A DNA stretch of 64,000 nt from an uncultured Candidatus Planktophila sp. (lineage in GTDB: Bacteria; Actinomycetota; Actinomycetes; Nanopelagicales; Nanopelagicaceae): contig CAYXDT010000005.1 of the NCBI GenBank assembly GCA_964463845.1, positions 23,559-87,558 of the forward strand, read 5' to 3'. The position numbers and the translations under genes were made by a program. Each line of letters begins with the position of its first letter. The first letter of the stretch is position 1. This document shows, in pieces, positions 4,367-57,335 of the stretch. Under the pieces are notes generated by a model. That model saw only the letters and a program-made list of their open reading frames with translations, was not told the DNA's origin and did not search any database.

Positions 4367-4451
4367 TGGTGGCGGGTGAAGGATTTGAACCTTCGAAGGC
4401 AGAGCCGGGGGATTTACAGTCCCCTCCCATTGGCCGCTCGGGCAACCCGCC
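4367..4451 (-). tRNA. tRNA-Tyr (GTA)
   Basis: Cloverleaf read by hand: acceptor GGCGGGT/ACCCGCC, anticodon loop CTGTAAA, long variable arm, T-arm GAAGG-TTCAAAT-CCTTC, encoded CCA. Confidence 0.97.
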
Positions 4452-4544
4452 AGGGTCGTACAAGTGTTGCGGCGCTTTGGTACTAGCGAGCCTCCAACGA
4501 TACCTTAGGCGCTTGAACTTTGAAAATCACGAGAGAGGGCCACA

Positions 4545-5033
4545 ATGGCTGACAGCAGTTTCGATGTAGTCTCCAAGATTGACCGTATGGAGCTAGATAA
4601 CGCGATTAATCAAGCAATCCGTGAGATTGATACCCGCTTTGATTTTAAGAACACTGGCGCAAAGATTGAACTCTCCGGAGATAAGATCGCAATTGAGGCA
4701 GATACTGAAGAACGCGCGAAGGCGACTCTTGATGTAGTCAAAGATAAGATGATTAAGAGAGGCGTCTCACTTAAGCATCTAGATGCGGCCGAGCCCCAAC
4801 TTTCAGGAAAGATATACAAGATTGCTTGCGCTCTTAAAGAGGGCATCTCGACTGAAAATGCGAAGAAGATTGCTAAATTCTTACGTGATGAGGGGCCAAA
4901 ATCAATCAAGTCTCAGATTCAAGGCGACGAGTTACGTGTGACTAGTAAGAGTCGCGATGATCTACAAGAGGCAATTGAGCAGATAAAGAATGGCAAATTC
5001 GAATTTGCAGTTCAATTTGTAAATTTCCGCTAA
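4545..5033 (+). CDS. yajQ: YajQ family nucleotide (c-di-GMP) binding protein
   Basis: MADSSFDVVSKID, RFDFK, QIQGDELRVTSKSRDDLQ and C-terminal QFVNFR; divergent from tRNA-Tyr as usual in actinobacteria. Confidence 0.95.
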   Translation: MADSSFDVVSKIDRMELDNAINQAIREIDTRFDFKNTGAKIELSGDKIAIEADTEERAKATLDVVKDKMIKRGVSLKHLDAAEPQLSGKIYKIACALKEGISTENAKKIAKFLRDEGPKSIKSQIQGDELRVTSKSRDDLQEAIEQIKNGKFEFAVQFVNFR

Positions 5034-23386: not shown

Positions 23387-24610
23387 ATGTCTCAACTGAC
23401 CCCGGTAACAACTGTTCGTATTGGTGAACATCTGCCTCTCCTTGACCTCTTGCCAGATTCATCTCCAGTTTCGTGGGTACGTGGCAACGATGGTTTCGTG
23501 GGTTGGGGGGTGCATGCCTCAATCAAAGTCTCTGGCCGCGATCGCTTCGAGCAAGCTCGGACTTGGTGGCATCAGCAGCTGGAGACCTTTGCAATCGCTG
23601 ATTCAGTTCACGCTAGCGGCACAGGCCCGCTGCTCTTTACCTCTTTCTCCTTTGATCGAAATGAAGAATCAATTCTCATAATTCCAAAGGTAATTGTCGG
23701 CAAGAAGGCGCAAACATCTTGGATAACTTGGATTGGCGAAAGCTCTCAGCCAACGCTTCTACAAAGTGTCGTTAAATCTTCCTCAGCCCACTTTGATTTC
23801 TCTGAAGGAACAATAAGTACCGAACAGTGGAAGGGGCGTGTGGCGCAGGCTATATCTCGCATCGAATCTCTCGCTGTAGATAAGGTCGTATTAGCTCGTG
23901 ATCTAAACGCTAGAACTTCTGCTGAAATCGATCAACGCCCAATTCTGAGAAAATTAGCCGCAGAATATCCATCTACCTGGACTTTTGCAGTTGCTGGATT
24001 AATTGGTGCAACCCCTGAGCTCTTACTTCGCCTATCTCGTGGCATGGTTACATCACGAGTTCTGGCGGGAACAATTCCTAAAACTGGTGATGATGAGAAA
24101 GATCTGGCGCTAGCAGCATCCCTTGCGCGCTCCTCGAAAGATCTGGAAGAGCATGAATATGCAGTTCGCTCAGTTGCACAAGCGCTTGAACCTTATTGCT
24201 CTTCTACAAATGTGCCTGACTCACCCTACGTTCTACATTTAGCAAATGTTATGCACTTAGCTACCGATGTGACTGGTGCGCTGATTGAAGGTAAACAGAA
24301 GTTTGATGCCTTTGCCTTACTAAAGAGTCTGCATCCATCTGCAGCTGTCTGCGGAACCCCACGCAACATCGCCTTTGATATCATCGACGAAATTGAAGGA
24401 ATGAACCGTGGCAGATATGCCGGACCGGTTGGCTGGATTGATGCCAGTGGTGATGGAGAACTTGGTATCGCACTTAGAAGCGGTCAGATTACAGATAATT
24501 CAATTCGCATCTTTGCTGGATGTGGAATTGTTGCTGGTTCAAATCCTGAGAAAGAGTTGGATGAGAGCAGCGCCAAGATGCTAGCCATGCGCTCTGCGCT
24601 ACATGGATGA
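23387..24610 (+). CDS. menF: Isochorismate synthase
   Basis: DKVVLARD, GATPELL, SRVLAGT, KDLEEHEY, LHPSAAVCGTP, RGRYAGPVGW, FAGCGIVAGS; inside men cluster. Confidence 0.92.
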   Translation: MSQLTPVTTVRIGEHLPLLDLLPDSSPVSWVRGNDGFVGWGVHASIKVSGRDRFEQARTWWHQQLETFAIADSVHASGTGPLLFTSFSFDRNEESILIIPKVIVGKKAQTSWITWIGESSQPTLLQSVVKSSSAHFDFSEGTISTEQWKGRVAQAISRIESLAVDKVVLARDLNARTSAEIDQRPILRKLAAEYPSTWTFAVAGLIGATPELLLRLSRGMVTSRVLAGTIPKTGDDEKDLALAASLARSSKDLEEHEYAVRSVAQALEPYCSSTNVPDSPYVLHLANVMHLATDVTGALIEGKQKFDAFALLKSLHPSAAVCGTPRNIAFDIIDEIEGMNRGRYAGPVGWIDASGDGELGIALRSGQITDNSIRIFAGCGIVAGSNPEKELDESSAKMLAMRSALHG

Positions 24611-26176
24611 TACTTTTGAGTAAATCTCTTTCAGTAAATCAGCGTTACTTTCTCGATCTGGCATAGATAGAACTGCAACAGTCAGCCCCTTAATTGGCTG
24701 GCTCAACTCACGATCTAATTCATCGAAATTTGTGATGGTCTTAGCGCTTACTCCCATAGCGCTGGCGATTGCTGCTAAATCCTTGCCATGAGGGGTACCG
24801 AAGATCTCCTCAAATCCAATAACTCCGCGCTGTGAGAGCGTTGAGAAGATTCCCCCACCATCATTATTGATAACAAATATCTTTAAGTTGATCTCTTCGT
24901 CATGGATTAAGCCGGTTAAATCATGTAAGAAGCCGAGATCTCCAAGTAGTGCGATGGTCTCCTTGCGTTGCGAGGCGATACCTAGCGCTGTTGAGATGTT
25001 TCCATCGATTCCCGCCAATCCTCGATTGGCAAAGGTTTCAACGCCGGTACGGGGCAAGGCAAATCCCTCAATATCTCGAATTGGTCTTGATGAGGAGATG
25101 AATAGGGCGCTACCTGCAGGAAGAGATGCAGCAATATGGCGGGCAACTATCGGTTCAGACCACTGTTTTACCTCGGCAAGTGACTTAATTGCGCGGGCTG
25201 CATACTTCTGCCATTTCTCGCGATACTCGACATCCCCTGGCAGAACAGAGAGCGTTGGCAATTGTGTAAATCGCTGGGCTGCTAATCGATCTGAATCTAC
25301 AGTTGCCATACGCGGATCAATCACAATCTCTTTCCGAGCCAACTTGATAAATGAGTTTATGGAGCGCGAGAGTGTGGTGCGCCCGATAATGACTACGGTA
25401 TCTGGCTTTAAATCTTCAGCAATAGCTTTGGAGTTTAAGAAGATACTGGCATGCGCTATCGCATCTGGAAAAGAGAGTGGATCTTCAGTGATTATTGGCC
25501 AGCCCAACTCTTGGGCAAACATTTCAACTGCGGCAAGAGGTAGACCTCCACGATCCTGGCCAATTACTAAGATGCCACGAGTGGATTTGGTATGAAAAGT
25601 TCCGGCGCTCTTTCGTGTGAAAACTCTTGTTGGTGTCACTACAAATTGGTCGAGCCAGCTTTCGTCACTGTCACCAACTAATGGTTCTTCAAATTGAATA
25701 TTGAGATGCACCGGTCCTGAGTGCAGAGAATTTAATGGAAGCTCCATCGGATATGCCGAGCCAGAGATATCGGCGGCGTATCGCACCGCCTTGCCAAAGA
25801 TACGCGCCTGCTCAGTAGTTTGATTAGCGCCGGTACGACGCATTGAGGCTGGTCTATCCGCAGTCAGAATTAACAGTGGCACATTGGTATGTGAGGCCTC
25901 AAGAATCGCTGGATGGTAATTGGCGACCGCAGTCCCACTTGTGCAGACAATCGGAACTGGGCGACCCGAAGCTTTCGCGATACCAAGTGCGAAGAAAGCA
26001 GCTGTTCGCTCATCAATTCGTGTATGTAATGAAATCAAGCCACGTTTGTGGGCTTGATAGAAGGCGATAGAGAGAGGGGCGTTTCTAGAACCGGGCGAGA
26101 TCACCACATCAGTAATGCCAGCTTCGACAATCTGGCGCACAATTACGCGAGCTAGCAGAGTAGATGGATTAATCAC
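24599..26176 (-). CDS. menD: SEPHCHC synthase
   Basis: VVISPGSRNAPL, IDERTAAFFALG, CTSGTAVAN, NRGLAGIDG, GDLGFLHD; GTG 26176 overlaps the menC stop. Confidence 0.96.
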   Translation of the reverse strand: MINPSTLLARVIVRQIVEAGITDVVISPGSRNAPLSIAFYQAHKRGLISLHTRIDERTAAFFALGIAKASGRPVPIVCTSGTAVANYHPAILEASHTNVPLLILTADRPASMRRTGANQTTEQARIFGKAVRYAADISGSAYPMELPLNSLHSGPVHLNIQFEEPLVGDSDESWLDQFVVTPTRVFTRKSAGTFHTKSTRGILVIGQDRGGLPLAAVEMFAQELGWPIITEDPLSFPDAIAHASIFLNSKAIAEDLKPDTVVIIGRTTLSRSINSFIKLARKEIVIDPRMATVDSDRLAAQRFTQLPTLSVLPGDVEYREKWQKYAARAIKSLAEVKQWSEPIVARHIAASLPAGSALFISSSRPIRDIEGFALPRTGVETFANRGLAGIDGNISTALGIASQRKETIALLGDLGFLHDLTGLIHDEEINLKIFVINNDGGGIFSTLSQRGVIGFEEIFGTPHGKDLAAIASAMGVSAKTITNFDELDRELSQPIKGLTVAVLSMPDRESNADLLKEIYSKVSSM

Positions 26177-27117
26177 AGGAGCTCCGCTGTCTTCATAACG
26201 CGATTCTTCCACCATTCATAGCGTTCGGGCGCCACTTCATATCCATTGAAGTCAGGCTCAACTTCAGTGATTTCAATTTCACCATTAACGATAGGCAGAG
26301 TTGCGACATCGGCGCTAAGAAGTGAGCCTGTACCTAGGCCGCAATCAAAGTTCATCTCTGGAAATGATGCAGCAAGATGTAATCCGTAATTGATTCCCAC
26401 AGCACTTTCTAGCGCACTTGATACAACCACTGGAAGTTTGTGGTGTTCGGCTAATTGATGTGCACGTGCAATTCCACCGAGCGGTTGAACCTTAAGCATC
26501 ACAAGATCTGCGGCACCGCTGAGATCAATGGCAAAAGGATCTTTTGCTTTTCGAAGAACTTCATCTACAGCAATCTTGAGAGGAATTTGGATACTGGCCT
26601 TTAACTCACGTAGCTCTTCCAGAGTGGTACAGGGTTGCTCAACATATTCAAATGGACCAACTTCCTCATAGAAGGCGTAGAGATTGGTGAGAGCATCTTT
26701 AACGCTCCAGAGCCCGTTGACATCGATGCGAATATTGATGTCTCGACCAAGAGATCGAATCTGCGCTAAACGCACAATATCTTCGCCTAAGTTATCTCCA
26801 ACCTTTACCTTAAATGTTTTGACACCTTGATATGTCTCTACGAGTGACTTAACTACGCTCTTATCATTGGTTGCAGGAATGGTTCCGTTTACTCGTACTG
26901 AATTGCGATAGAGCTTTGGGCGAGGTTTTGTTGCGGCCTCTATGGCGCACATCAGCCAAGGCACAGACTCTTGGTAGTCATATTCAAGAAATGGCGAAAA
27001 TTCGCCCCACCCATATTCACCTTGAAAGAGCGCTACTTCACGAACGTTGATGCCACGAAAGTTTGTCTTAGTAGGCAGCGCAACCACGCGCATACTTTCG
27101 AGCAGAGAGAGATCCAT
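26173..27117 (-). CDS. menC: o-succinylbenzoate synthase
   Basis: GWGEFSPF, FKVKVG, RIDVNG, YVEQPC, LKVQPLGG, VVSSALES; ATG 27117. Confidence 0.94.
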   Translation of the reverse strand: MDLSLLESMRVVALPTKTNFRGINVREVALFQGEYGWGEFSPFLEYDYQESVPWLMCAIEAATKPRPKLYRNSVRVNGTIPATNDKSVVKSLVETYQGVKTFKVKVGDNLGEDIVRLAQIRSLGRDINIRIDVNGLWSVKDALTNLYAFYEEVGPFEYVEQPCTTLEELRELKASIQIPLKIAVDEVLRKAKDPFAIDLSGAADLVMLKVQPLGGIARAHQLAEHHKLPVVVSSALESAVGINYGLHLAASFPEMNFDCGLGTGSLLSADVATLPIVNGEIEITEVEPDFNGYEVAPERYEWWKNRVMKTAELL

Positions 27118-27121
27118 GTAA

Positions 27122-28000
27122 TTAGGGGCGTCGCGGAAACTTTCCGAAATCCGGCTTGCGCTTTTCCTTGTAAGCATCGCGACCTTCTTGGCCTTCTTCG
27201 CTTAAGTAGAAGAGAAGAGTGGCATCTCCGGCAAGCTGTTGCACGCCAGCTAACCCATCATCTGCTGCATTCATAGAAGCTTTTAGTAGACGCAGCGCTA
27301 ATGGAGAGTTTTGTAACATCTCACGACACCACGAGACCGTCTCCGCCTCTAACTCCTTAAGTGGAACGACTGTATTCACAAGCCCCATTGCAAGGGCTTC
27401 TTGCGCATCGTATTGGCGGGTCATAAACCAAATTTCGCGCGCCTTTTTCTGGCCCACATTGGCCGCTAATAATCCAGAGCCGTAACCGCCATCAAATGAG
27501 CCAACCATCGGACCAGTCTGACCAAACTTTGCATTATCGGCAGCGATTGAGAGATCGCAGACAACGTGCAAGACATGTCCTCCACCAATCGCCCATCCCG
27601 CAATCATGGCAACTACGGGTTTTGGCGTTCTGCGAATTTGTACTTGTAAATCTAAAACATTTAATCGGCCGACACCTTGCTGCGAAAGTGGGTCATCGCC
27701 TAAGTAGCCATCATCACCACGCACACTTATATCTCCACCGGAACAGAAAGCCTCATCGCCTGCGCCAGTTAAAATAATTACTCCCACGCTGGTGTGATCG
27801 CGCGCTAAATCAAAGGCAGCTTTTAACTCGATAATAGTTTGCGGGCGAAAGGCGTTACGTACCTCCGGGCGATTGATGGTGATCTTGGCGATTCCATCGG
27901 CGATTTGATATTTGATATCAGTAAATGACTCACCACCCGGACCAGTCACCCATGCAGGGATGGTTCGGTCACCAAAATCACGCTTTATCGGCTTGCTCAC
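27122..28000 (-). CDS. menB: 1,4-dihydroxy-2-naphthoyl-CoA synthase
   Basis: [43 protein letters not shown]. Confidence 0.97.
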
Positions 28001-28041
28001 ATTTCCTCCATTTGGTCTACGAGCGATAGCCTACGCGGGCA

Positions 28042-29136
28042 ATGGAGCAGAACGCACAACGAGAACTTCGCACAGTCAGCCCCGAGTGGACTGTCAGCGA
28101 ATTGATGGCTCGTATCGCTAAGGCGCTGGTATCTGACGGACCTGCCTTGGCCTTTAGCCCCACAGTTCATACCCATGTTCCCTCCCGAGTAAGCCTAGTT
28201 TTAGCTACCACTGGCAGCTCAGGTCTTGTAAAAGAGGTCGGACTTTCTGCAAGCGCACTTCTAACATCTGCGCGTGCTGCAAATAATTTTTTAAACGCCG
28301 ATTTTGGAAATTCTTGGTCGCTGCTACTTCCCCTCAGCCACATTGCGGGCGTTAATGTTCTAATTCGCTCTCTCGAACTCGGAACTGAACCAATTGATCT
28401 TCGTAATCGTGATGGTGAATTTCCTAAAGCTGACTTCACAGCAATTGTTCCTACCCAGTTATTCAATGCGCTTAATGGCGATGATCGATTGTTAGCTCAT
28501 TTGATTGGCGCTAAAGCAGTATTGATTGGTGGAGCCCCAATATCTGAGGATTTAAAGGTACGGGCGCAAATGGCCGAAATTAATCTTGTAACTTCCTACG
28601 GCATGACGGAGACCGCAGGAGGATTTGTTTACAACGGAGTACCTCTAGCAGAATCCGAAATCAAATTGACGGATCAAAATTGTGTTGCCATAAAGGGCAG
28701 CGTTCTCGCCAGCACCTACCTTGGTGCAGAATCTTTGTGGGAGGCGCAATTTGAAGATGGTTGGTTCGTAACTCAAGATTTGGCAAAGTTTGAAGATGAA
28801 AAATTGGTAGTGATTGGCCGAAGTGATGATGTCATAATTTCTGGGGGTGAAAACATCTCACTCGATGCAATTGAGAATGCGCTGGCTGCGCGATTTACCG
28901 GCAAAACTTTTGTTGCACTTGCAAAAGAAGACGCCCGTTGGGGTGGCGCTCTTCACCTCGCAATTGTTGGTGCAGATACGCCTGCCGAATCTGAAATAGT
29001 CGATTTTCTCGCAGAGAATTTTGGAGTTAGCGCAAAACCAAAAGGGTTTCTCTATCTTTCCGAGCTACCACTCATTGGAATAGGTAAGGTAGATCGCAAT
29101 AAACTAGCGCAACTAATTTCGGAGGTGCCAAATTAA
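28042..29136 (+). CDS. menE: o-succinylbenzoate-CoA ligase (short actinobacterial form)
   Basis: TTGSSG P-loop, LPLSHIAG, SYGMTETAGG, GRSDDVIISGGEN, GKVDR. Confidence 0.9.
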   Translation: MEQNAQRELRTVSPEWTVSELMARIAKALVSDGPALAFSPTVHTHVPSRVSLVLATTGSSGLVKEVGLSASALLTSARAANNFLNADFGNSWSLLLPLSHIAGVNVLIRSLELGTEPIDLRNRDGEFPKADFTAIVPTQLFNALNGDDRLLAHLIGAKAVLIGGAPISEDLKVRAQMAEINLVTSYGMTETAGGFVYNGVPLAESEIKLTDQNCVAIKGSVLASTYLGAESLWEAQFEDGWFVTQDLAKFEDEKLVVIGRSDDVIISGGENISLDAIENALAARFTGKTFVALAKEDARWGGALHLAIVGADTPAESEIVDFLAENFGVSAKPKGFLYLSELPLIGIGKVDRNKLAQLISEVPN

Positions 29137-29977
29137 TATTTGGATCCTAGGTGCTCGTCCACGGACCCTAACTGCAGCTGTTGCACCTGTAGCAGTAGCG
29201 ACAGTTCTGGCTGGCGGATCCTGGCGTCCACTTGAAGCGCTCCTGGCTCTAATCGTTGCACTGTCGCTGCAAATTGCCGTCAACTACTCAAATGATTACT
29301 CCGACGGAGTTCGCGGTACTGATAATAATCGCGTTGGGCCAATTCGCCTGACTGCATCTGGCCTAGCCTCTCCCAAGGCGGTAAAAACTGCTGCACTTCT
29401 TAGCTTTGTAATTGCTGCACTCGCTGGGCTAGCTTTGGCAGCGCTCTCCTCTTGGTGGATTCTTATCATCGGAGCTCTCGCAATACTCGCCGCGTGGGGT
29501 TACACCGGAGGACGTTCTCCATATGGATACAGTGGTTTTGGCGAACTTTCAGTCTTTACCTTCTTTGGAGTAGTAGCCACAGTTGGTACCTACTATGTAC
29601 AGACCCTCGAGGTTTCACTCTCAGTTTTGGCAGCTTCAGTTCCGATGGGCACACTCTCTTGTGCAATTCTGGCGATAAATAATATTCGTGACCGCGAACG
29701 CGATGCACAGGTTGGGAAAAATACCCTTGCTGTTCGATTGGGTGATCTTAACTCGCGCCGCTTCTATGTCGCCCTAATTGTTTGCGCATATATCTTTGCA
29801 CCTCTCACCGGTGATCCACTTGCTCTGCTGACTCTGGCAACCTTTCCACAGGCGCGCGCACTTATTCAAGAAGTTTTAGCTGGTGCATCTGGAGAGGCGC
29901 TCATCCCACTACTGGGTAGAACTGGCCAGCTACAACTACATTTCGCCTTGATTTTTGCCCTAGCCCTCTCTTTTTAA
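29132..29977 (+). CDS. menA: DHNA polyprenyltransferase; apparent ATT start
   Basis: Manual translation upstream of the ORF-track start gives (M)NIWILGARPRTLTAAVAPV...NYSNDYSDGVRGTD with no stop; C-term NNIRDRERD..GKNTLAVRLG; in-frame TAA at 29114 and no ATG/GTG/TTG before 29435. Confidence 0.93.
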   Translation: MNIWILGARPRTLTAAVAPVAVATVLAGGSWRPLEALLALIVALSLQIAVNYSNDYSDGVRGTDNNRVGPIRLTASGLASPKAVKTAALLSFVIAALAGLALAALSSWWILIIGALAILAAWGYTGGRSPYGYSGFGELSVFTFFGVVATVGTYYVQTLEVSLSVLAASVPMGTLSCAILAINNIRDRERDAQVGKNTLAVRLGDLNSRRFYVALIVCAYIFAPLTGDPLALLTLATFPQARALIQEVLAGASGEALIPLLGRTGQLQLHFALIFALALSF

Positions 29978-30017
29978 CCGAAAAGCGGAGATTTCCAACA
30001 GGTAATAGAATTTACCC

Positions 30018-30275
30018 ATGCTCAGACTTTCTGGATTTCTACTTCTTCTCTCGCTGGCACTTACTCTCTACACATTTGTGGAGTGTGCGATGCGCGATGA
30101 TACGAAGATAAAGAAACTTCCAAAGTGGGGCTGGTTACTAGTAATTCTCTTTCTTAACACCATCGGGCCAATTGCTTATCTAGCTGTCGGAAGAGTTCGA
30201 ACTCCTCGCAACAAGAAGCAGGGCAAGAAGTTTCTACCTCCTGATGATGACCCTGATTTCTTGCGCAGTATCTAA
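30018..30275 (+). CDS. Small membrane protein, PLDc N-terminal domain family
   Basis: Two TM helices, LPKWGWLLVILFLNTIGPIAYLAVGR, C-terminal PPDDDPDFL. Confidence 0.8.
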   Translation: MLRLSGFLLLLSLALTLYTFVECAMRDDTKIKKLPKWGWLLVILFLNTIGPIAYLAVGRVRTPRNKKQGKKFLPPDDDPDFLRSI

Positions 30276-30283
30276 ATTAACTC

Positions 30284-31198
30284 TTATAGACCAGAGTAAG
30301 TGTGCTTGCCAGTTCCCCAAACATTTACATATACATAGTTAAATAAGAAGGTCGATCCAGCAAAGATACATAGCCACGCTGCGCGTCGCCCTCTCCAACC
30401 AACCGTTACGCGGGCATGTAGATATGCCGCATATGCCACCCAAGTGATAAAGGCCCAAGTCTCCTTTGGATCCCAGCCCCAATATCTTCCCCATGCCGCC
30501 TCTGCCCAGATTGCACCTGCAATCACAGAGAAGGTCCAGAGTGGAAAGACAAAGGCGACTAAACGGTAAGAGAGTTGATCAAGTACATCTAGTGAGGGAA
30601 CTCTTTGCAACCAGAGTGGTCGGCCTCCTCTACTTTCTCGGTAATCAAGGTATAAAAATCCTCCAGCAACGATATTTGCCAGCAAGAAGACGCCGCCAGA
30701 AATAATTGCAGCAATAACATGGATTACCAACCATGGAGATTGCAGCGCAGGTACAAGAGGCGCACTATCTCTGTAAAGCAAAGTTACTGCTGTCCCCAGA
30801 GTTAGAAGGACACCAAATGAGATAAACAAACCCAACCAACGTAAGTCATATTTGCGAAGAGCGGCTAGATAGGCGGCAGTAAAGGCGAGCGCCCCAGAAA
30901 TTGAAAATTCATACATATTTGACCAAGGTACATAACCAGATGCCAGGCCACGAGCGACTACTCCTCCGAGGAGTAATACAAAACCTAAGCCCATCAGAGC
31001 AGTTGCAATACGGGCTGCTTTTTGAGTTCGCTTGAAATCTAGAGTTTTCACCATCAGATTTCCATCTGTTGAATCAGCGTTTGCTGGTGTCCGAACTGCA
31101 AATGCCGTTTCGAAGGCGTGAGCTAGGAAGGAGAGAGCAAAGACTCCCATCGCAGAGTAGACAAGGTTATTTGAGATGTAGGCCCACGTTGTCTGCAT
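30284..31198 (-). CDS. ccsB: Cytochrome c biogenesis protein CcsB/ResC (system II)
   Basis: WWD motif WAEAAWGRYWGWDPKETW, PWSNMYEF, LQSPWLVIHV, terminal GKHTYSG. Confidence 0.95.
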   Translation of the reverse strand: MQTTWAYISNNLVYSAMGVFALSFLAHAFETAFAVRTPANADSTDGNLMVKTLDFKRTQKAARIATALMGLGFVLLLGGVVARGLASGYVPWSNMYEFSISGALAFTAAYLAALRKYDLRWLGLFISFGVLLTLGTAVTLLYRDSAPLVPALQSPWLVIHVIAAIISGGVFLLANIVAGGFLYLDYRESRGGRPLWLQRVPSLDVLDQLSYRLVAFVFPLWTFSVIAGAIWAEAAWGRYWGWDPKETWAFITWVAYAAYLHARVTVGWRGRRAAWLCIFAGSTFLFNYVYVNVWGTGKHTYSGL

Positions 31199-32664
31199 TA
31201 CTTCTCCCCCTTTATCTTCTTAACAATCTCTGCAATTTCAATATCCAATCCAGGTGCATCATTTTTAGAAAGTCCCGCAATCTCGACCTTCTCACCAACT
31301 ACGCGCACCCAAATTCTGCGTCGCTTACCGTAAAGGGAGGCGAGCAAACCAGCTATAGCAAAGATACCGCCAATGAGCGCGTACTGCTTTCCAGGATCTT
31401 CTACCATCTGCAGATTTACCCAAGGTACAACAGTCTCTAGTGTGATGGAGCCCTCTGGGTAAGAGTAAGTCTGACCGGGTGTGACCGATCCCAACCCAAT
31501 ACGTTCTAGATTATCGGTCTCGATTCGATAGATAGATTGTGGCACCCCGGAGTCAAGGCCCAAATCTCCCTTCCAAATTGCAAAGAGCATCTTTGGGTCA
31601 AGCAGCTCAGGAAAGATTGAAGTTGCCGCTTCTCCTGCTACACGATCTTGCGTTGGCAAGAATGTTGCGACAAAGCCAAGTTGTGGTTCTGCATCTGGAA
31701 CTTTTATGGCGCCGATGGAGCGAAGATTTCCATCCTGCGGCAGAAATGGCACAGGTCCTTGTAGCGCTACATTTCCCGTTGCATCTCTAACTGTAACTAC
31801 TGGGCTATATCCATTTGCTTGTAGATAGACCCGAGTATTCCCAAAGGTCAATGGCTCATTAACTTGGATAACCCTCTTGGATGTGACACCGTTTTCAACG
31901 ACAGTTACAAATGCTGAGTACTCCTTGGGAGCACCCGTAATCGTGTTGTACTCTGCTTCAAATCTATCTAACTTGATTTCAAAGCCTTGCAACTTCGACT
32001 CATTTGATAACTTTCCAAAGGCCAAGGTGTCATATGAGGTTGCGACATTTATAAATCGCTCACCAACATTGATGATTGCCTCACCACGCATACCAAATAG
32101 CGAGCCAAACCCGACCCCGATTAGAATCAAAATCAAAGATAAGTGAAATAGAAGGTTTCCGGTCTCTCGAATAAAGCCCTTCTCAGCCGAGATAGATGTG
32201 CCTTCGTTACGAATTCGGAATCTATTCTTCTTAAACCACGCCTCCGCAAGAGCTAAAGCCTCATCACTTCTAGCAAAATCCTGGTGATGCTCCATTCGCT
32301 CCAAATTCTTTGGTGTTGCAGGAGGTTGGGCGCGCATCGCTTTGAAATGCTCAAAGGTGCGAGGCAAGACGCAACCGATCAGTGAGATAAAGAGAAGGAG
32401 ATAAATTGCGCTAAACCACGGAGAGCCAAAGACATCAAAGAGGTAGAAGCGATCATATAGACGGGCAGTATCAGGATCGCTTATGTAGAACTCGCGAACT
32501 GCAATTGGATTGGTCAGCCGTTGCGGAATCAAAGATCCCGGAATCGCGGCGATTCCCATAAGGAGCAGAAGTATCAGCGCAGTTCGCATGCTGGTCAGCT
32601 GGCGCCATAAATACCGAGCGAGACCAATTACACCTAACTCAGGAAGTTGCGTCTGTTGGCTCAT
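31198..32664 (-). CDS. resB: Cytochrome c biogenesis protein ResB
   Basis: LTSMRTALILLLLMGIAAIPGSLIPQ, SPWFSAIYLLLFISLIGC, GNLLFHLSL. Confidence 0.93.
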   Translation of the reverse strand: MSQQTQLPELGVIGLARYLWRQLTSMRTALILLLLMGIAAIPGSLIPQRLTNPIAVREFYISDPDTARLYDRFYLFDVFGSPWFSAIYLLLFISLIGCVLPRTFEHFKAMRAQPPATPKNLERMEHHQDFARSDEALALAEAWFKKNRFRIRNEGTSISAEKGFIRETGNLLFHLSLILILIGVGFGSLFGMRGEAIINVGERFINVATSYDTLAFGKLSNESKLQGFEIKLDRFEAEYNTITGAPKEYSAFVTVVENGVTSKRVIQVNEPLTFGNTRVYLQANGYSPVVTVRDATGNVALQGPVPFLPQDGNLRSIGAIKVPDAEPQLGFVATFLPTQDRVAGEAATSIFPELLDPKMLFAIWKGDLGLDSGVPQSIYRIETDNLERIGLGSVTPGQTYSYPEGSITLETVVPWVNLQMVEDPGKQYALIGGIFAIAGLLASLYGKRRRIWVRVVGEKVEIAGLSKNDAPGLDIEIAEIVKKIKGEK

Positions 32665-54943: not shown

Positions 54944-56553
54944 GAATTTCCCACCTCCTGATAGCCGCTAGTCCAGTGCCCTACCTGGTCTAATTGCTGC
55001 ACAATACGTTTCTTCCACAGAGCACTTGTCTCAGGAAAATCTTCCCTCCAATGGGAACCGCGCGTCTCTTGTCGAATGAGCGCCGCCCGCAGAATAGCTT
55101 GAGCTAATTGAAATAGATTTGTTGACTCCCATGCTTCTACACATGGCTGCGTACTCTTCTTATCTTCAATTCGAGTCAACTCTGCACTAGTTTTGAGAAG
55201 TGAATCAGCAGAGCGTAGAACTCCGGCGCCACGACTCATATTTATTTGAATCTCATGGCGCACTGATGGATCAAGTAAAATCGCTGGAGATGAATTCTCC
55301 ACAGGTTCACTTAACTCTGGGAGGTTTTGAGCAATATTTGCTGCAATTCTTGCGCTAAAAACTAGCCCTTCGAGCAGAGAGTTGGAAGCTAGACGATTAG
55401 CGCCATGAACACCTGAACACGCTGTCTCACCGCATGCATATAAACCGCTAACGCTAGTCCTGCCATTGATATCAACCCGAACTCCTCCAGATGCGTAATG
55501 TGAAGCTGGCGCCACTGGAATTAGATCTTTCAGTGGATCAATTCCATTTGTAGCGCATGAGGCGTAAATTGTTGGAAAGCGTTCTTTAAAATTCTCTAGA
55601 TGACGAACATCTAACCAAACATGTTGTGCACCAGTCTCATTCATGATTCGCATTATTGATATCGCTACAACATCGCGTGGTGCAAGTTCGGCAAGGGGAT
55701 GAATATCTTGCATAAATCTTTCTCCTGCAGAATTTAAGAGATAGGCGCCTTCTCCGCGCACCGCTTCGCTGATTAGGGGTTGCTGTCCCTCTGAATTCTC
55801 GCCCAACCAAAGTACAGTTGGATGAAATTGGATAAATTCCACATCAGCTACCTGAGCTCCAGCACGCAAGGCCAGGGCTACGCCATCTCCAGTTGAGACA
55901 GATGGATTTGTTGTCTGGGCAAATACTTGGCCCAATCCACCGGTTGCCAAGACGACAGCGCGGGCCAATCCCCGACCAACACCATCGCGTGAACCTGCAC
56001 CAATTACATGGAGCGTGACACCGCAAACTTCCCCCGCCTCGTTTTTAAGCGCATCTAAAACTAGGGCATTTTCGACTACCTCAATCTCAGGGTCATCTTG
56101 TACAGCAGCAAGGAGTGCACGCGAAACTTCTGCGCCAGTTGCATCTCCTCCGGCATGCAGGATGCGATTGCGCAAGTGGCCACCTTCGCGAGTAAGAGCA
56201 ATCTCACCGCTATCTTCTTTATCAAAGATGGCGCCACGTTCAATAAGTTTTCTAACTGCCTCTGGACCTTCAGTAACAAGAATTCGTACCGCCGGAACAT
56301 CACATAGCCCAGCACCTGCCACCAAGGTATCTTTCTCGTGATCTTCTGGTGAGTCGCCATCGCCAAGAGCTGCTGCTATTCCACCCTGCGCCCACTTAGT
56401 GGAACCTTCATCAACGCTGGCCTTAGTTACCAACAGAACTGATAGGCCAAAGGTGCGACATTGCAGCGCAGTTGTGAGCCCAGCAATTCCTGATCCAACA
56501 ACTATGACATCAGCGGTAGCAGTCCATCCTGCAGGGGGTGCAAGTAACTTCAT
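54940..56553 (-). CDS. nadB: L-aspartate oxidase
   Basis: VGSGIAGL, TKWAQGGIAA, EGGHLRNRILHAGGDATG, QFHPT, HGANRLASNSLLEG. Confidence 0.96.
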   Translation of the reverse strand: MKLLAPPAGWTATADVIVVGSGIAGLTTALQCRTFGLSVLLVTKASVDEGSTKWAQGGIAAALGDGDSPEDHEKDTLVAGAGLCDVPAVRILVTEGPEAVRKLIERGAIFDKEDSGEIALTREGGHLRNRILHAGGDATGAEVSRALLAAVQDDPEIEVVENALVLDALKNEAGEVCGVTLHVIGAGSRDGVGRGLARAVVLATGGLGQVFAQTTNPSVSTGDGVALALRAGAQVADVEFIQFHPTVLWLGENSEGQQPLISEAVRGEGAYLLNSAGERFMQDIHPLAELAPRDVVAISIMRIMNETGAQHVWLDVRHLENFKERFPTIYASCATNGIDPLKDLIPVAPASHYASGGVRVDINGRTSVSGLYACGETACSGVHGANRLASNSLLEGLVFSARIAANIAQNLPELSEPVENSSPAILLDPSVRHEIQINMSRGAGVLRSADSLLKTSAELTRIEDKKSTQPCVEAWESTNLFQLAQAILRAALIRQETRGSHWREDFPETSALWKKRIVQQLDQVGHWTSGYQEVGNS

Positions 56554-57335
56554 TTCAGCTCCCCTTTCTGCAACTTCTCAATCTCTCTATTGTCAATCAA
56601 GCGGATGCCATTTATCCACCCAGCAACTATGGCACGAACCTCTTTACTCTCGCTCTTTGCGTGAGTGAAGTCACGCGGATCAATGAAATCTGCATAATCT
56701 AAGGTGAATAAGGGTTCGGTCGTTAGTAAATTTCTTAACTCATCAGCTGATTTGGCGTTAGATAGTGCATGAAAGATGATTGCCGCAGCATCACGTTCCT
56801 CTACAGAGAGTCGGACATTGCGCGAGGACATAGCCAGACCACTTGGTTCACGCATTGTTGGGGCAGAGATAATCTCAACTTCATCTGCAATCATTTTGAT
56901 TAGCTGCAACTGCTGAAAATCTTTCTCTCCAAAGATTGCCACTTTTGGTCTTACTAAATCAAATAGTCTGCGAACTACTGTTACAACACCATCAAAGTGT
57001 CCTGGTCTAGATTTACCTTCATAGATTTCACCTAGAGGACCTGCAGAAATACTGGAAAATCCGGTTGGATAAATCTCTTCACGTGTTGGAAACCAGAGAT
57101 GGGTTACTCCAGCAGATTCAGCAATTGCAATATCTTCATCTGGCGTACGTGGGTAAAGCGCTAGATCGCTTTCATTCTCAAATTGCAATGGATTTATGAA
57201 AATACTAGCCACAATATCTTTGGAGTATCTCTGCGCCAGCGAGAATAGTGAGGCATGCCCAGCATGCAGAGCGCCCATAGTTGGAATAAAGGCGCAGCCC
57301 AAAGGAAGTGCGCTGGCGTTATCTACTACTTTCAT
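56550..57335 (-). CDS. panC: Pantoate-beta-alanine ligase
   Basis: PTMGALHAGH, SIFINPLQF, RPGHFDGV, FGEKDFQQL, GLAMSSRN, RLIDN. Confidence 0.97.
   Translation of the reverse strand: MKVVDNASALPLGCAFIPTMGALHAGHASLFSLAQRYSKDIVASIFINPLQFENESDLALYPRTPDEDIAIAESAGVTHLWFPTREEIYPTGFSSISAGPLGEIYEGKSRPGHFDGVVTVVRRLFDLVRPKVAIFGEKDFQQLQLIKMIADEVEIISAPTMREPSGLAMSSRNVRLSVEERDAAAIIFHALSNAKSADELRNLLTTEPLFTLDYADFIDPRDFTHAKSESKEVRAIVAGWINGIRLIDNREIEKLQKGELK

What the first reader, a model, noticed from the sequence alone, without database searches (positions are those of the whole stretch)
29114..29160. menA appears to initiate at a non-canonical ATT codon
Seen: the menA frame is intact from 29132 (ATT AAT ATT TGG ATC CTA GGT GCT CGT CCA CGG ACC CTA) and includes the conserved RPRTL and NDYSD motifs. 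It is closed upstream by TAA at 29114 and has no ATG/GTG/TTG until 29435. A GGAGG SD (29121-29125) lies 6 nt before the ATT, which overlaps the menE stop (AAT TAA). Known: ATT starts are rare, as in E. coli infC and pcnB, are discriminated by IF3 and lower expression. Inference: deliberate throttling or IF3-linked control of the prenyltransferase step. Alternatives are a +1 shift giving a MenE-MenA fusion, a recent mutation, or a base-call error. Automated annotation would truncate menA by about 100 aa.
Basis: partly seen in the sequence, partly recalled or inferred. Interest (0 to 1): 0.75.

Follow-up and report, generated by a model that had tools for sequence, protein, structure and literature searches.

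The report
Conserved ATT start codon of menA
The menaquinone gene menA of this freshwater Planktophila bacterium almost certainly starts at the rare codon ATT, which shares a base with the stop codon of the upstream gene menE; about 36 related species keep this arrangement, so it is a real but not unprecedented feature that many gene callers miss.

Summary
The menA frame opens after TAA 29114-16. Its first ATG/GTG/TTG is TTG 29435, 101 codons in and past the RPRTL and NDYSD motifs. GGAGG (29121-25) lies 6 nt before ATT 29132-34, whose last T is the first base of the menE stop TAA.

It is neither a base-call error nor a recent mutation. An independent conspecific metagenome contig has the same junction. 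All 37 loci of one monophyletic Ca. Planktophila clade carry GGAGG-N6-ATTAA, while the spacer and the overlapping MenE residues vary. The 61 outgroup loci examined each have a canonical in-frame start within a few codons of the conserved TGG (nearly all ATG). In 30 of the 37 no upstream canonical start exists. No conserved slippery codon supports a MenE-MenA fusion.

The most likely mechanism is SD-directed initiation at AUU, coupled to menE termination. A reversion to ATG would destroy the menE stop.

NCBI already annotates the ATT start in the cultured relative IMCC25003 (QLL23147.1). A JGI gene call for a conspecific contig truncates menA to 180 aa.

Deliberate throttling or IF3 control is untested. 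This is a new member of a known kind, of moderate interest.

The parts
28042..29136 (+). menE (o-succinylbenzoate-CoA ligase), 364 aa, stop TAA at 29134-36
   Evidence: ORF list and translation. Best NCBIfam matches are the MenE models, though below their cut-offs, and Pfam gives AMP-binding. A conspecific protein is 99% identical.
29114..29116 (+). TAA that closes the menA reading frame upstream
   Evidence: Read directly and seen in the translation of 29117-29980.
29121..29125 (+). Shine-Dalgarno GGAGG, inside the menE codons TCG GAG GTG
   Evidence: Invariant in 37 of 37 clade loci, while the overlapping MenE residues on either side vary. The Glu codon is always GAG although genome-wide GAG use is 49%. 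Full GGAGG is rare in this genome: 26 occurrences upstream of 842 putative genes, with a modal spacer of 6-7 nt.
29126..29131 (+). 6-nt spacer (TGCCAA) between SD and start
   Evidence: The length is constant and the sequence variable across the 37 loci.
29132..29134 (+). ATT, proposed menA initiation codon. T 29134 is also the first base of the menE stop.
   Evidence: Invariant in 37 of 37 loci. It is homologous to the ATG of many outgroup genomes. The first base of the overlapping menE codon NAT takes all four values, yet AT never changes.
29134..29136 (+). menE stop codon TAA, overlapping ATT and AAT of menA
   Evidence: TAA in 37 of 37 loci. The third base of menA codon 2 (AAN) is free.
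29132..29977 (+). menA (1,4-dihydroxy-2-naphthoate polyprenyltransferase), 281 aa, with RPRTL at 29156-70 and the Asp-rich NDYSD at 29291-305
   Evidence: NF004751 359 bits against a cut-off of 264, TIGR00751 260 bits, and Pfam UbiA on residues 17-236.
29435..29437 (+). TTG, the first canonical in-frame codon and a false start used by a gene caller. It would give a 180-aa protein without TM1-3 and without the first Asp-rich motif.
   Evidence: The JGI gene call on the conspecific contig L031 is 4394-4936, 180 aa.

Best explanation
menA is translated as a separate 281-aa protein that begins at AUU 29132-34, presumably decoded by initiator tRNA as fMet. The ribosome is positioned by a perfect GGAGG Shine-Dalgarno 6 nt upstream. 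This is one of the strongest ribosome-binding sites in the genome and lies inside the 3' end of menE. Because the AUU shares its last base with the menE stop (AUUAA), ribosomes terminating on menE are released 1 nt from the menA start. Initiation is therefore probably coupled to menE translation, by termination-reinitiation and/or local unfolding. The arrangement arose once, in the ancestor of a large Ca. Planktophila clade, by a single mutation that made both the ATT and the new menE stop. That mutation was either G to T in ATG AAT (menE AAT GAA TAA to AAT TAA) or a 3-nt deletion in ATG GCT AAT. It is now maintained because a change back to ATG would abolish the menE stop. The expected net effect is a low MenA output at a fixed ratio to MenE. 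Shown here: the sequence anatomy, its conservation, its single origin, and the absence of alternative starts. Inferred: use of AUU, the coupling, the expression level and any sensitivity to IF3.
For: (1) Anatomy is as described, and the MenA HMM alignment leaves no room for a missing N-terminus. (2) An independently assembled conspecific contig has the identical junction, and 6 of the 8 differences in the first 300 nt of menA are synonymous. (3) All 37 loci from about 36 species have GGAGG-N6-ATT-AAN-ATY-TGG with menE TAA on the T of ATT. These include the cultured strain IMCC25003 and many closed genomes. The two islands GGAGG and ATTAA are invariant, while the spacer, the menE tail and the MenE residues encoded across the SD all vary. 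(4) 30 of the 37 have no in-frame ATG/GTG/TTG between the upstream stop and the ATT. The first downstream canonical codon wanders from codon 12 to codon 155. (5) The ATT-bearing rows form one clade (SH-aLRT 95, one change) on a MenA tree built without the trait codons. All 61 other loci have a canonical start. (6) The nearest ATG-type relatives already have GGAGG 5-6 nt before their ATG. (7) NCBI's protein QLL23147.1 of IMCC25003 is exactly M+NIWIQG... (281 aa), and the DNA there reads ATT. (8) Precedent: AUU gives 1-2% of AUG in E. coli reporters (bioRxiv 10.1101/063800). Conserved AUU/AUA starts with extended SDs give about 10% of AUG in S. aureus (PMC13009471).
Against: Two more near-cognate codons follow in frame, ATT 29138 and ATC 29144. 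Seven of the 37 relatives do have an upstream in-frame TTG, ATG or GTG inside menE, and some pipelines use it. No mRNA structure that would enforce coupling was detected (z = 0.13). The conserved T of ATT would be kept by the menE stop alone, so only the A and the first T testify independently to start-codon selection.
Confidence: 0.85

Rival explanations
1. Initiation occurs at another nearby near-cognate codon of the same frame (ATT 29138 or ATC 29144) rather than at ATT 29132. This would give a MenA shorter by 2 or 4 residues.
For: Codon 3 is ATT or ATC in 37 of 37 loci, and codon 5 is ATY in nearly all. These are equally near-cognate.
Against: They lie 12 and 18 nt from the SD, whereas the genome's modal spacer is 6-7 nt. 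ATT 29132 is the positional homologue of the ATG in many outgroups. Codons 3 and 5 encode hydrophobic residues at the start of TM1, which explains their conservation.
Confidence: 0.07
2. A programmed +1 ribosomal frameshift near the menE stop produces a MenE-MenA fusion protein, and there is no independent menA initiation.
For: There is a stop codon in the A site and an SD upstream, as in prfB. The menA frame is +1 relative to menE and opens 17 nt before the menE stop.
Against: The P-site codon before the stop is AAT, CAT, TAT or GAT, and the codon before it also varies, so no conserved slippery codon can re-pair in +1. The SD lies 5 nt from that codon, not 3 nt as in prfB. All outgroups encode separate proteins with their own canonical start. 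The GGAGG-N6 spacing is the initiation optimum.
Confidence: 0.03
3. menA starts at the first canonical codon (TTG 29435), giving a truncated 180-aa protein, or the gene is decaying.
For: A gene caller chose this start.
Against: Such a protein would lack RPRTL, three predicted helices and the first Asp-rich motif NDYSD. The first 101 codons are under purifying selection within the species and across the clade. The position of the first canonical codon is not conserved, ranging from codon 12 to codon 155.
Confidence: 0.02
4. Sequencing or assembly error, or a strain-specific recent mutation, at 29134 (true base G).
For: None found. Raw reads could not be inspected.
Against: The same base is present in an independent conspecific assembly and in 36 other genomes, including closed ones. 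A G at 29134 would also remove the menE stop and extend MenE by 32 codons.
Confidence: 0.01

Closest known systems
E. coli infC and pcnB (AUU initiation codons)
   Same: A chromosomal gene whose only usable initiator is AUU, preceded by an SD. The codon is conserved in relatives and is expected to lower initiation and to be discriminated against by IF3 (bioRxiv 10.1101/063800; Sacerdot 1996 and Binns & Masters 2002, as cited in PMC2268962 and PMC13009471).
   Different: Here the gene is a membrane biosynthetic enzyme, not a translation or RNA-turnover factor. No feedback loop is evident. The AUU physically overlaps the upstream stop codon, so its third base is fixed by a second constraint.
S. 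aureus cvfC1 (AUU) and ccpN (AUA) with extended SD motifs (PMC13009471)
   Same: A weak near-cognate start paired with an unusually strong SD, both conserved across a genus. Those reporters give about 10% of AUG.
   Different: Those sites were mapped by Ribo-RET and tested with reporters, whereas this one rests on comparative sequence only. They are not stop-start overlaps.
Stop-start overlap coupling (ATGA, TAATG) by termination-reinitiation (PMC6728339, PMC10666635, PMC12548453)
   Same: Co-directional operon neighbours of one pathway whose stop and start codons overlap. The downstream start lies within 1-2 nt of the terminating ribosome's P site.
   Different: The geometry is ATTAA, where the start's third base is the stop's first base. 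No canonical start codon can form this, because none ends in T.
Streptomyces sigR GTC start repressed by IF3 (PMC5472188)
   Same: An actinobacterial gene with a conserved non-canonical initiator. It is experimental precedent in the phylum for IF3-dependent control through such a codon.
   Different: sigR is a regulator with a demonstrated IF3 effect. For menA no regulatory role has been shown.

Membership tests
MenA, 1,4-dihydroxy-2-naphthoate polyprenyltransferase (UbiA superfamily) | Full-length match to the curated equivalog HMM above its cut-off | tested here: met
   NF004751 359 bits against a cut-off of 264, TIGR00751 260.6 against 102, and Pfam UbiA 110.7 bits.
MenA, 1,4-dihydroxy-2-naphthoate polyprenyltransferase (UbiA superfamily) | First Asp-rich motif (N-x-x-x-D type) and the N-terminal R-P-(R/K)-T-L segment are present | tested here: met
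   RPRTL is at residues 9-13 and NDYSD at residues 54-58 of the frame from 29132. These columns are invariant or nearly so among 18 genus members.
MenA, 1,4-dihydroxy-2-naphthoate polyprenyltransferase (UbiA superfamily) | Menaquinone pathway context | tested here: met
   The neighbours on the conspecific contig carry TPP-enzyme (menD-like), MR_MLE (menC-like), ECH (menB-like) and AMP-binding (menE) domains. The matching ORFs are present in the window.
Bacterial genes initiated at AUU (infC, pcnB, cvfC1 type) | No canonical initiator is available upstream of conserved, essential N-terminal sequence | tested here: met
   There is a stop 6 codons upstream (TAA 29114-16) and the first canonical codon is 101 codons downstream. 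The same holds in 30 of 37 relatives.
Bacterial genes initiated at AUU (infC, pcnB, cvfC1 type) | SD at functional spacing from the near-cognate codon | tested here: met
   GGAGG with a 6-nt spacer in 37 of 37 loci. The genome's modal spacer is 6-7 nt.
Bacterial genes initiated at AUU (infC, pcnB, cvfC1 type) | The near-cognate codon is conserved in orthologues beyond what the overlapping coding constraints explain | tested here: met
   ATT is invariant in 37 loci, while the first base of the overlapping menE codon NAT takes all four values.
Bacterial genes initiated at AUU (infC, pcnB, cvfC1 type) | Initiation at that codon shown directly (N-terminal peptide, toeprint or Ribo-RET) | not testable with these tools
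Bacterial genes initiated at AUU (infC, pcnB, cvfC1 type) | Expression responds to IF3 level or fidelity | not testable with these tools
   Context only: infC of this genome itself probably starts at ATC behind AGGAG, and the initiator tRNA is canonical.
Translational coupling by stop-start overlap | Co-directional genes whose stop and start codons overlap or abut | tested here: met
   ATTAA at 29132-36, conserved in 37 of 37 loci.
Translational coupling by stop-start overlap | Downstream translation depends on upstream translation | not testable with these tools
   This needs a reporter carrying a premature stop in menE.
Programmed +1 frameshift (prfB type) | Conserved slippery P-site codon able to re-pair in the +1 frame | tested here: not met
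   The last sense codon is AAT (25), CAT (10), TAT (1) or GAT (1), and the preceding codon is also variable.
Programmed +1 frameshift (prfB type) | SD about 3 nt upstream of the shift codon | tested here: not met
   GGAGG ends 5 nt before the AAT codon.

The most novel reading that the evidence does not exclude
The ATT is primarily an evolutionary lock rather than a regulatory throttle. One mutation fused the menE stop and the menA start into ATTAA, a geometry that only a T-ending near-cognate initiator can form. It was tolerated because a consensus SD and termination-reinitiation make the start-codon identity nearly irrelevant. It cannot revert without destroying the upstream stop. Streamlined Planktophila genomes would then use near-cognate starts at several operon junctions to hard-wire protein ratios. 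Candidates here are rpmF-rnc (CTG), pepA (ATT) and infC (ATC).
Probability: 0.3. Interest if true: 0.5.

Novelty: new member of a known kind. Interest (0 to 1): 0.35.

Why it matters
Practical value. In an abundant freshwater lineage (acI-A, Ca. Planktophila) menA is annotated with at least ten different lengths, from 180 to 298 aa, depending on the pipeline. Truncated calls lose the catalytic motif. They can make menaquinone biosynthesis look broken in metabolic reconstructions of these genome-reduced bacteria.

Conceptual value. It is a clean natural example of a near-cognate start kept over deep divergence. It shows nucleotide-level selection on the SD and the start that can be separated from the overlapping coding constraint. 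It also offers a simple explanation of why such a codon can become irreversible. This makes it a good test case for how much start-codon identity matters when initiation is coupled to termination. It does not open a new kind of mechanism.

Tried and rejected
An independent conspecific assembly was used instead.
- Exact look-ups of four candidate MenA N-termini of this genome found nothing.
- Contig look-ups for P0001, P0046 and P0050 found nothing.
- The first DNA alignment (A1) was misleading, because loci from minus-strand matches are not re-oriented. It was redone as A2.
- RNA folding of 29085-29185 gave z = 0.13. The small CCAAAU/AUUUGG hairpin around the start is not conserved in CAT-type relatives, so a structural switch was rejected.
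- A search for the 16S 3' tail found no copy in the assembly, so the anti-SD could not be read.
- Relaxed initiator tRNA as a cause of multiple non-canonical starts was rejected. The initiator tRNA has the C1:U72 mismatch and three G-C pairs in the anticodon stem.
- Depletion of in-frame ATG/GTG/TTG in the first 101 codons as a selected feature was rejected. Such runs are common, and relatives have canonical codons at codons 12-49.
- The upstream TTG or ATG used in the 286-298-aa annotations was rejected as the real start. It is absent from 30 of 37 loci. Where present, it falls inside the conserved menE GIGKVD motif or directly abuts the SD.

Full report
**Observation.**
menE occupies 28042-29136 and ends AAT TAA. 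In the +1 frame the sequence is TAA (29114-16), five sense codons, then ATT (29132-34) AAT ATT TGG ATC CTA GGT GCT CGT CCA CGG ACC CTA. That frame runs to a stop at 29975-77. Its first ATG/GTG/TTG is TTG 29435, which is codon 102. GGAGG lies at 29121-25, 6 nt before the ATT. T 29134 is both the third base of ATT and the first base of the menE stop.

Translated from 29132, the product is a full-length MenA. It scores 359 bits on NCBIfam NF004751 (cut-off 264), with residues 3-280 on profile positions 12-294 of 296. Pfam UbiA covers residues 17-236. The RPRTL segment (residues 9-13) and the first Asp-rich motif NDYSD (residues 54-58) both lie upstream of the first canonical codon. A 101-codon stretch without ATG/GTG/TTG is not unusual in itself in this genome. 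The chance is about 1% for a fixed stretch, and 127 of 598 long ORFs contain such a run. What matters is that this run starts at a stop-bounded N-terminus.

**Not an error and not recent.**
A 437-kb JGI metagenome contig of the same species (MenE 99% identical) has the identical GGAGGTGCCAAATTAATATTTGG junction. Between the two assemblies, 6 of the 8 differences in the first about 300 nt of menA are synonymous in the menA frame.

The genome is a 1.30-Mb, 48% GC member of Ca. Planktophila (acI-A, Nanopelagicaceae). I collected menE-menA junctions from 98 genomes:
- Every one of 37 loci has GGAGG-N6-ATT-AAN-ATY-TGG, with the menE TAA on the T of ATT. These loci represent about 36 species. They include the cultured strain IMCC25003 and many closed chromosomes.
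- The other 61 loci comprise 18 further genomes of the same GTDB genus and 43 from other Nanopelagicales. Each has a canonical in-frame start within a few codons of the conserved TGG, nearly always ATG and most often ATG AAT AAA TGG.
- On a MenA tree built from the conserved TGG onward, so that the trait codons are excluded, the ATT rows form a single clade (SH-aLRT 95). One change explains the distribution.

**Evidence that ATT and GGAGG are selected as translation signals.**
A position-by-position count over the 37 loci shows two invariant islands, GGAGG (29121-25) and ATTAA (29132-36). They are embedded in variable sequence.

The SD lies in the menE codons xxG GAG Gxx:
- The flanking residues vary. 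On one side they are M, T, Q, L, S, V or R, and on the other A, E, V or G.
- The Glu codon is GAG in 37 of 37 loci, although GAG is only 49% of Glu codons genome-wide.

The last menE codon is NAT, with N being A, C, T or G (Asn, His, Tyr or Asp). The first base is therefore free, while the AT shared with ATT never changes.

The third base of menA codon 2 (AAN) is free, while its AA, which belongs to the TAA, is fixed.

In 30 of the 37 loci no ATG/GTG/TTG lies in frame between the preceding stop and the ATT. The first downstream canonical codon wanders between codon 12 and codon 155. The ATT is thus the only conserved candidate initiator.

A full GGAGG is rare in this genome. It occurs 26 times upstream of 842 putative genes, with a modal spacer of 6-7 nt. 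The weak codon is therefore paired with one of the strongest ribosome-binding sites available.

**Origin and maintenance (inference).**
In the common outgroup state, menE ends AAT GAA TAA over menA ATG AAT AAA. A G to T change converts ATG to ATT and GAA to TAA at once. Alternatively, a 3-nt deletion in a G002-like ATG GCT AAT (menE CAT GGC TAA) gives the same result.

The nearest ATG-type relatives already carry GGAGG 5-6 nt before their ATG (G002 and G022). The strong SD therefore probably pre-dated the mutation and permitted it.

Once formed, ATTAA resists reversion. A T to G change would remove the menE stop and extend MenE by 6 to 61 codons, 32 in this genome. No canonical start ends in T, so this overlap geometry exists only with a near-cognate such as ATT.

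**Mechanism.**
The best-supported reading is SD-directed initiation at AUU, coupled to termination of menE. With UAA in the A site, the P site sits 1 nt from the AUU. This would yield a separate MenA at a low level and a fixed ratio to MenE.

Published measurements put AUU at 1-2% of AUG in E. coli reporters (bioRxiv 10.1101/063800). Conserved AUU/AUA sites with extended SDs in S. aureus give about 10% of AUG (PMC13009471). Overlap-dependent coupling is well documented (PMC6728339, PMC12548453).

I found no significant RNA structure around the junction (z = 0.13). The initiator tRNA is canonical.

Whether the weak codon is used for regulation is untested. IF3 control is known for infC and for Streptomyces sigR (PMC5472188). 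infC of this genome itself appears to start at ATC behind AGGAG.

**Rivals.**
- A prfB-like +1 frameshift giving a MenE-MenA fusion is unlikely. The codons before the stop vary, so no slippery site is conserved. The SD is 5 nt rather than 3 nt from the would-be shift codon. The outgroups all make separate proteins.
- Initiation at ATT 29138 or ATC 29144 cannot be excluded. It is disfavoured by SD spacing (12 and 18 nt) and by homology to the outgroup ATG.
- A truncated protein from TTG 29435 would lack the catalytic motif.
- A base-call error is excluded by 37 concordant assemblies.

**Annotation status and novelty.**
Public gene calls for this clade are inconsistent.
- Calls of 286-298 aa use a fortuitous TTG or ATG inside menE, for example MVKLTEKSYKNFLWRLPINIW.
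- Calls of 276, 260, 246 and 180 aa use downstream codons.
- NCBI's record for IMCC25003 (QLL23147.1) and several MAG proteins are 281 aa beginning MNIWIQG. For IMCC25003 this M sits on the ATT. The MAG source DNA could not be fetched.

The call therefore already exists in one annotation pipeline. I found no paper about it. Earlier notes of this scan report similar cases elsewhere, including the same GGAGG + ATTAA design at trpA-manC in Omnitrophota. Those are unverified leads. I class this as a new member of a known kind.

**In passing.**
A genome-wide screen looked for coding-like frames lacking a canonical start for at least 35 codons. It recovered menA and two more housekeeping genes.
- rnc follows rpmF as TGA T CTG, with GAGG 6 nt upstream. 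That context is conserved in 14 of 15 genus members aligned (G009 has an indel at this point), and ten of them have no canonical alternative nearby.
- pepA has an ATT behind GGAG shortly after the upstream stop. The ATT is shared with the two closest species, while more distant ones have ATG or GTG.

Noticed in passing
L117:2176-2178 (minus strand), which is G000 contig C2, ORF 97400-98131: rnc (RNase III, TIGR02191 229 bits) has no ATG/GTG/TTG for its first 94 codons. The likely start is CTG, 1 nt after the rpmF stop (GAGGTCTGATCTG), with GAGG 6 nt upstream. This context is present in 14 of 15 same-genus genomes aligned (G009 has an indel here). Ten of them lack a canonical codon nearby, and five have ATG/GTG/TTG three codons later.
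   Followed up: partly
L141:1501-1503, which is G000 contig C3, ORF 55659-57161: pepA (leucyl aminopeptidase) has its first canonical codon at codon 41, inside the N-terminal domain. An ATT lies behind GGAG (6-nt spacer), 14 nt after the upstream TAG. It is shared with the two closest species (G005, G007). More distant genomes have ATG or GTG there.
   Followed up: partly
L035:1495-1497, which is G000 contig C1 142088-142090: infC probably starts at ATC (ITTEPRINDRIR...) with AGGAG 5 nt upstream. The only upstream canonical codons (TTG and GTG, 11 and 18 codons earlier) have no SD.
   Followed up: partly
window 29085-29131 and L032:1501-1556: In some relatives the menA frame stays open through the menE tail back to a TTG inside the conserved GIGKVD motif. 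Gene callers then produce 298-aa MenA proteins with a 56-nt overlap. The extension is only the +1 reading of menE, and it is closed by stops in this genome.
   Followed up: yes
window 29128-29143: A perfect 6-bp inverted repeat CCAAAT-TAAT-ATTTGG spans the ATT and the TAA. The fold is not significant (z = 0.13), and the repeat is absent from relatives whose menE ends in CAT.
   Followed up: yes
whole genome G000: A full GGAGG upstream of genes is rare (26 hits in the 25 nt before 842 putative starts). Four-base SD cores peak at spacers of 5-8 nt. No 16S rRNA 3' tail was found in the assembly.
   Followed up: partly
window 24599-32664: Gene order: menD, menC and menB on the minus strand, divergent from menE-menA. 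Then comes a small PLDc_N-domain ORF (30018-30275), followed by ccsB/resC-like and resB-like cytochrome c maturation genes on the minus strand.
   Followed up: no
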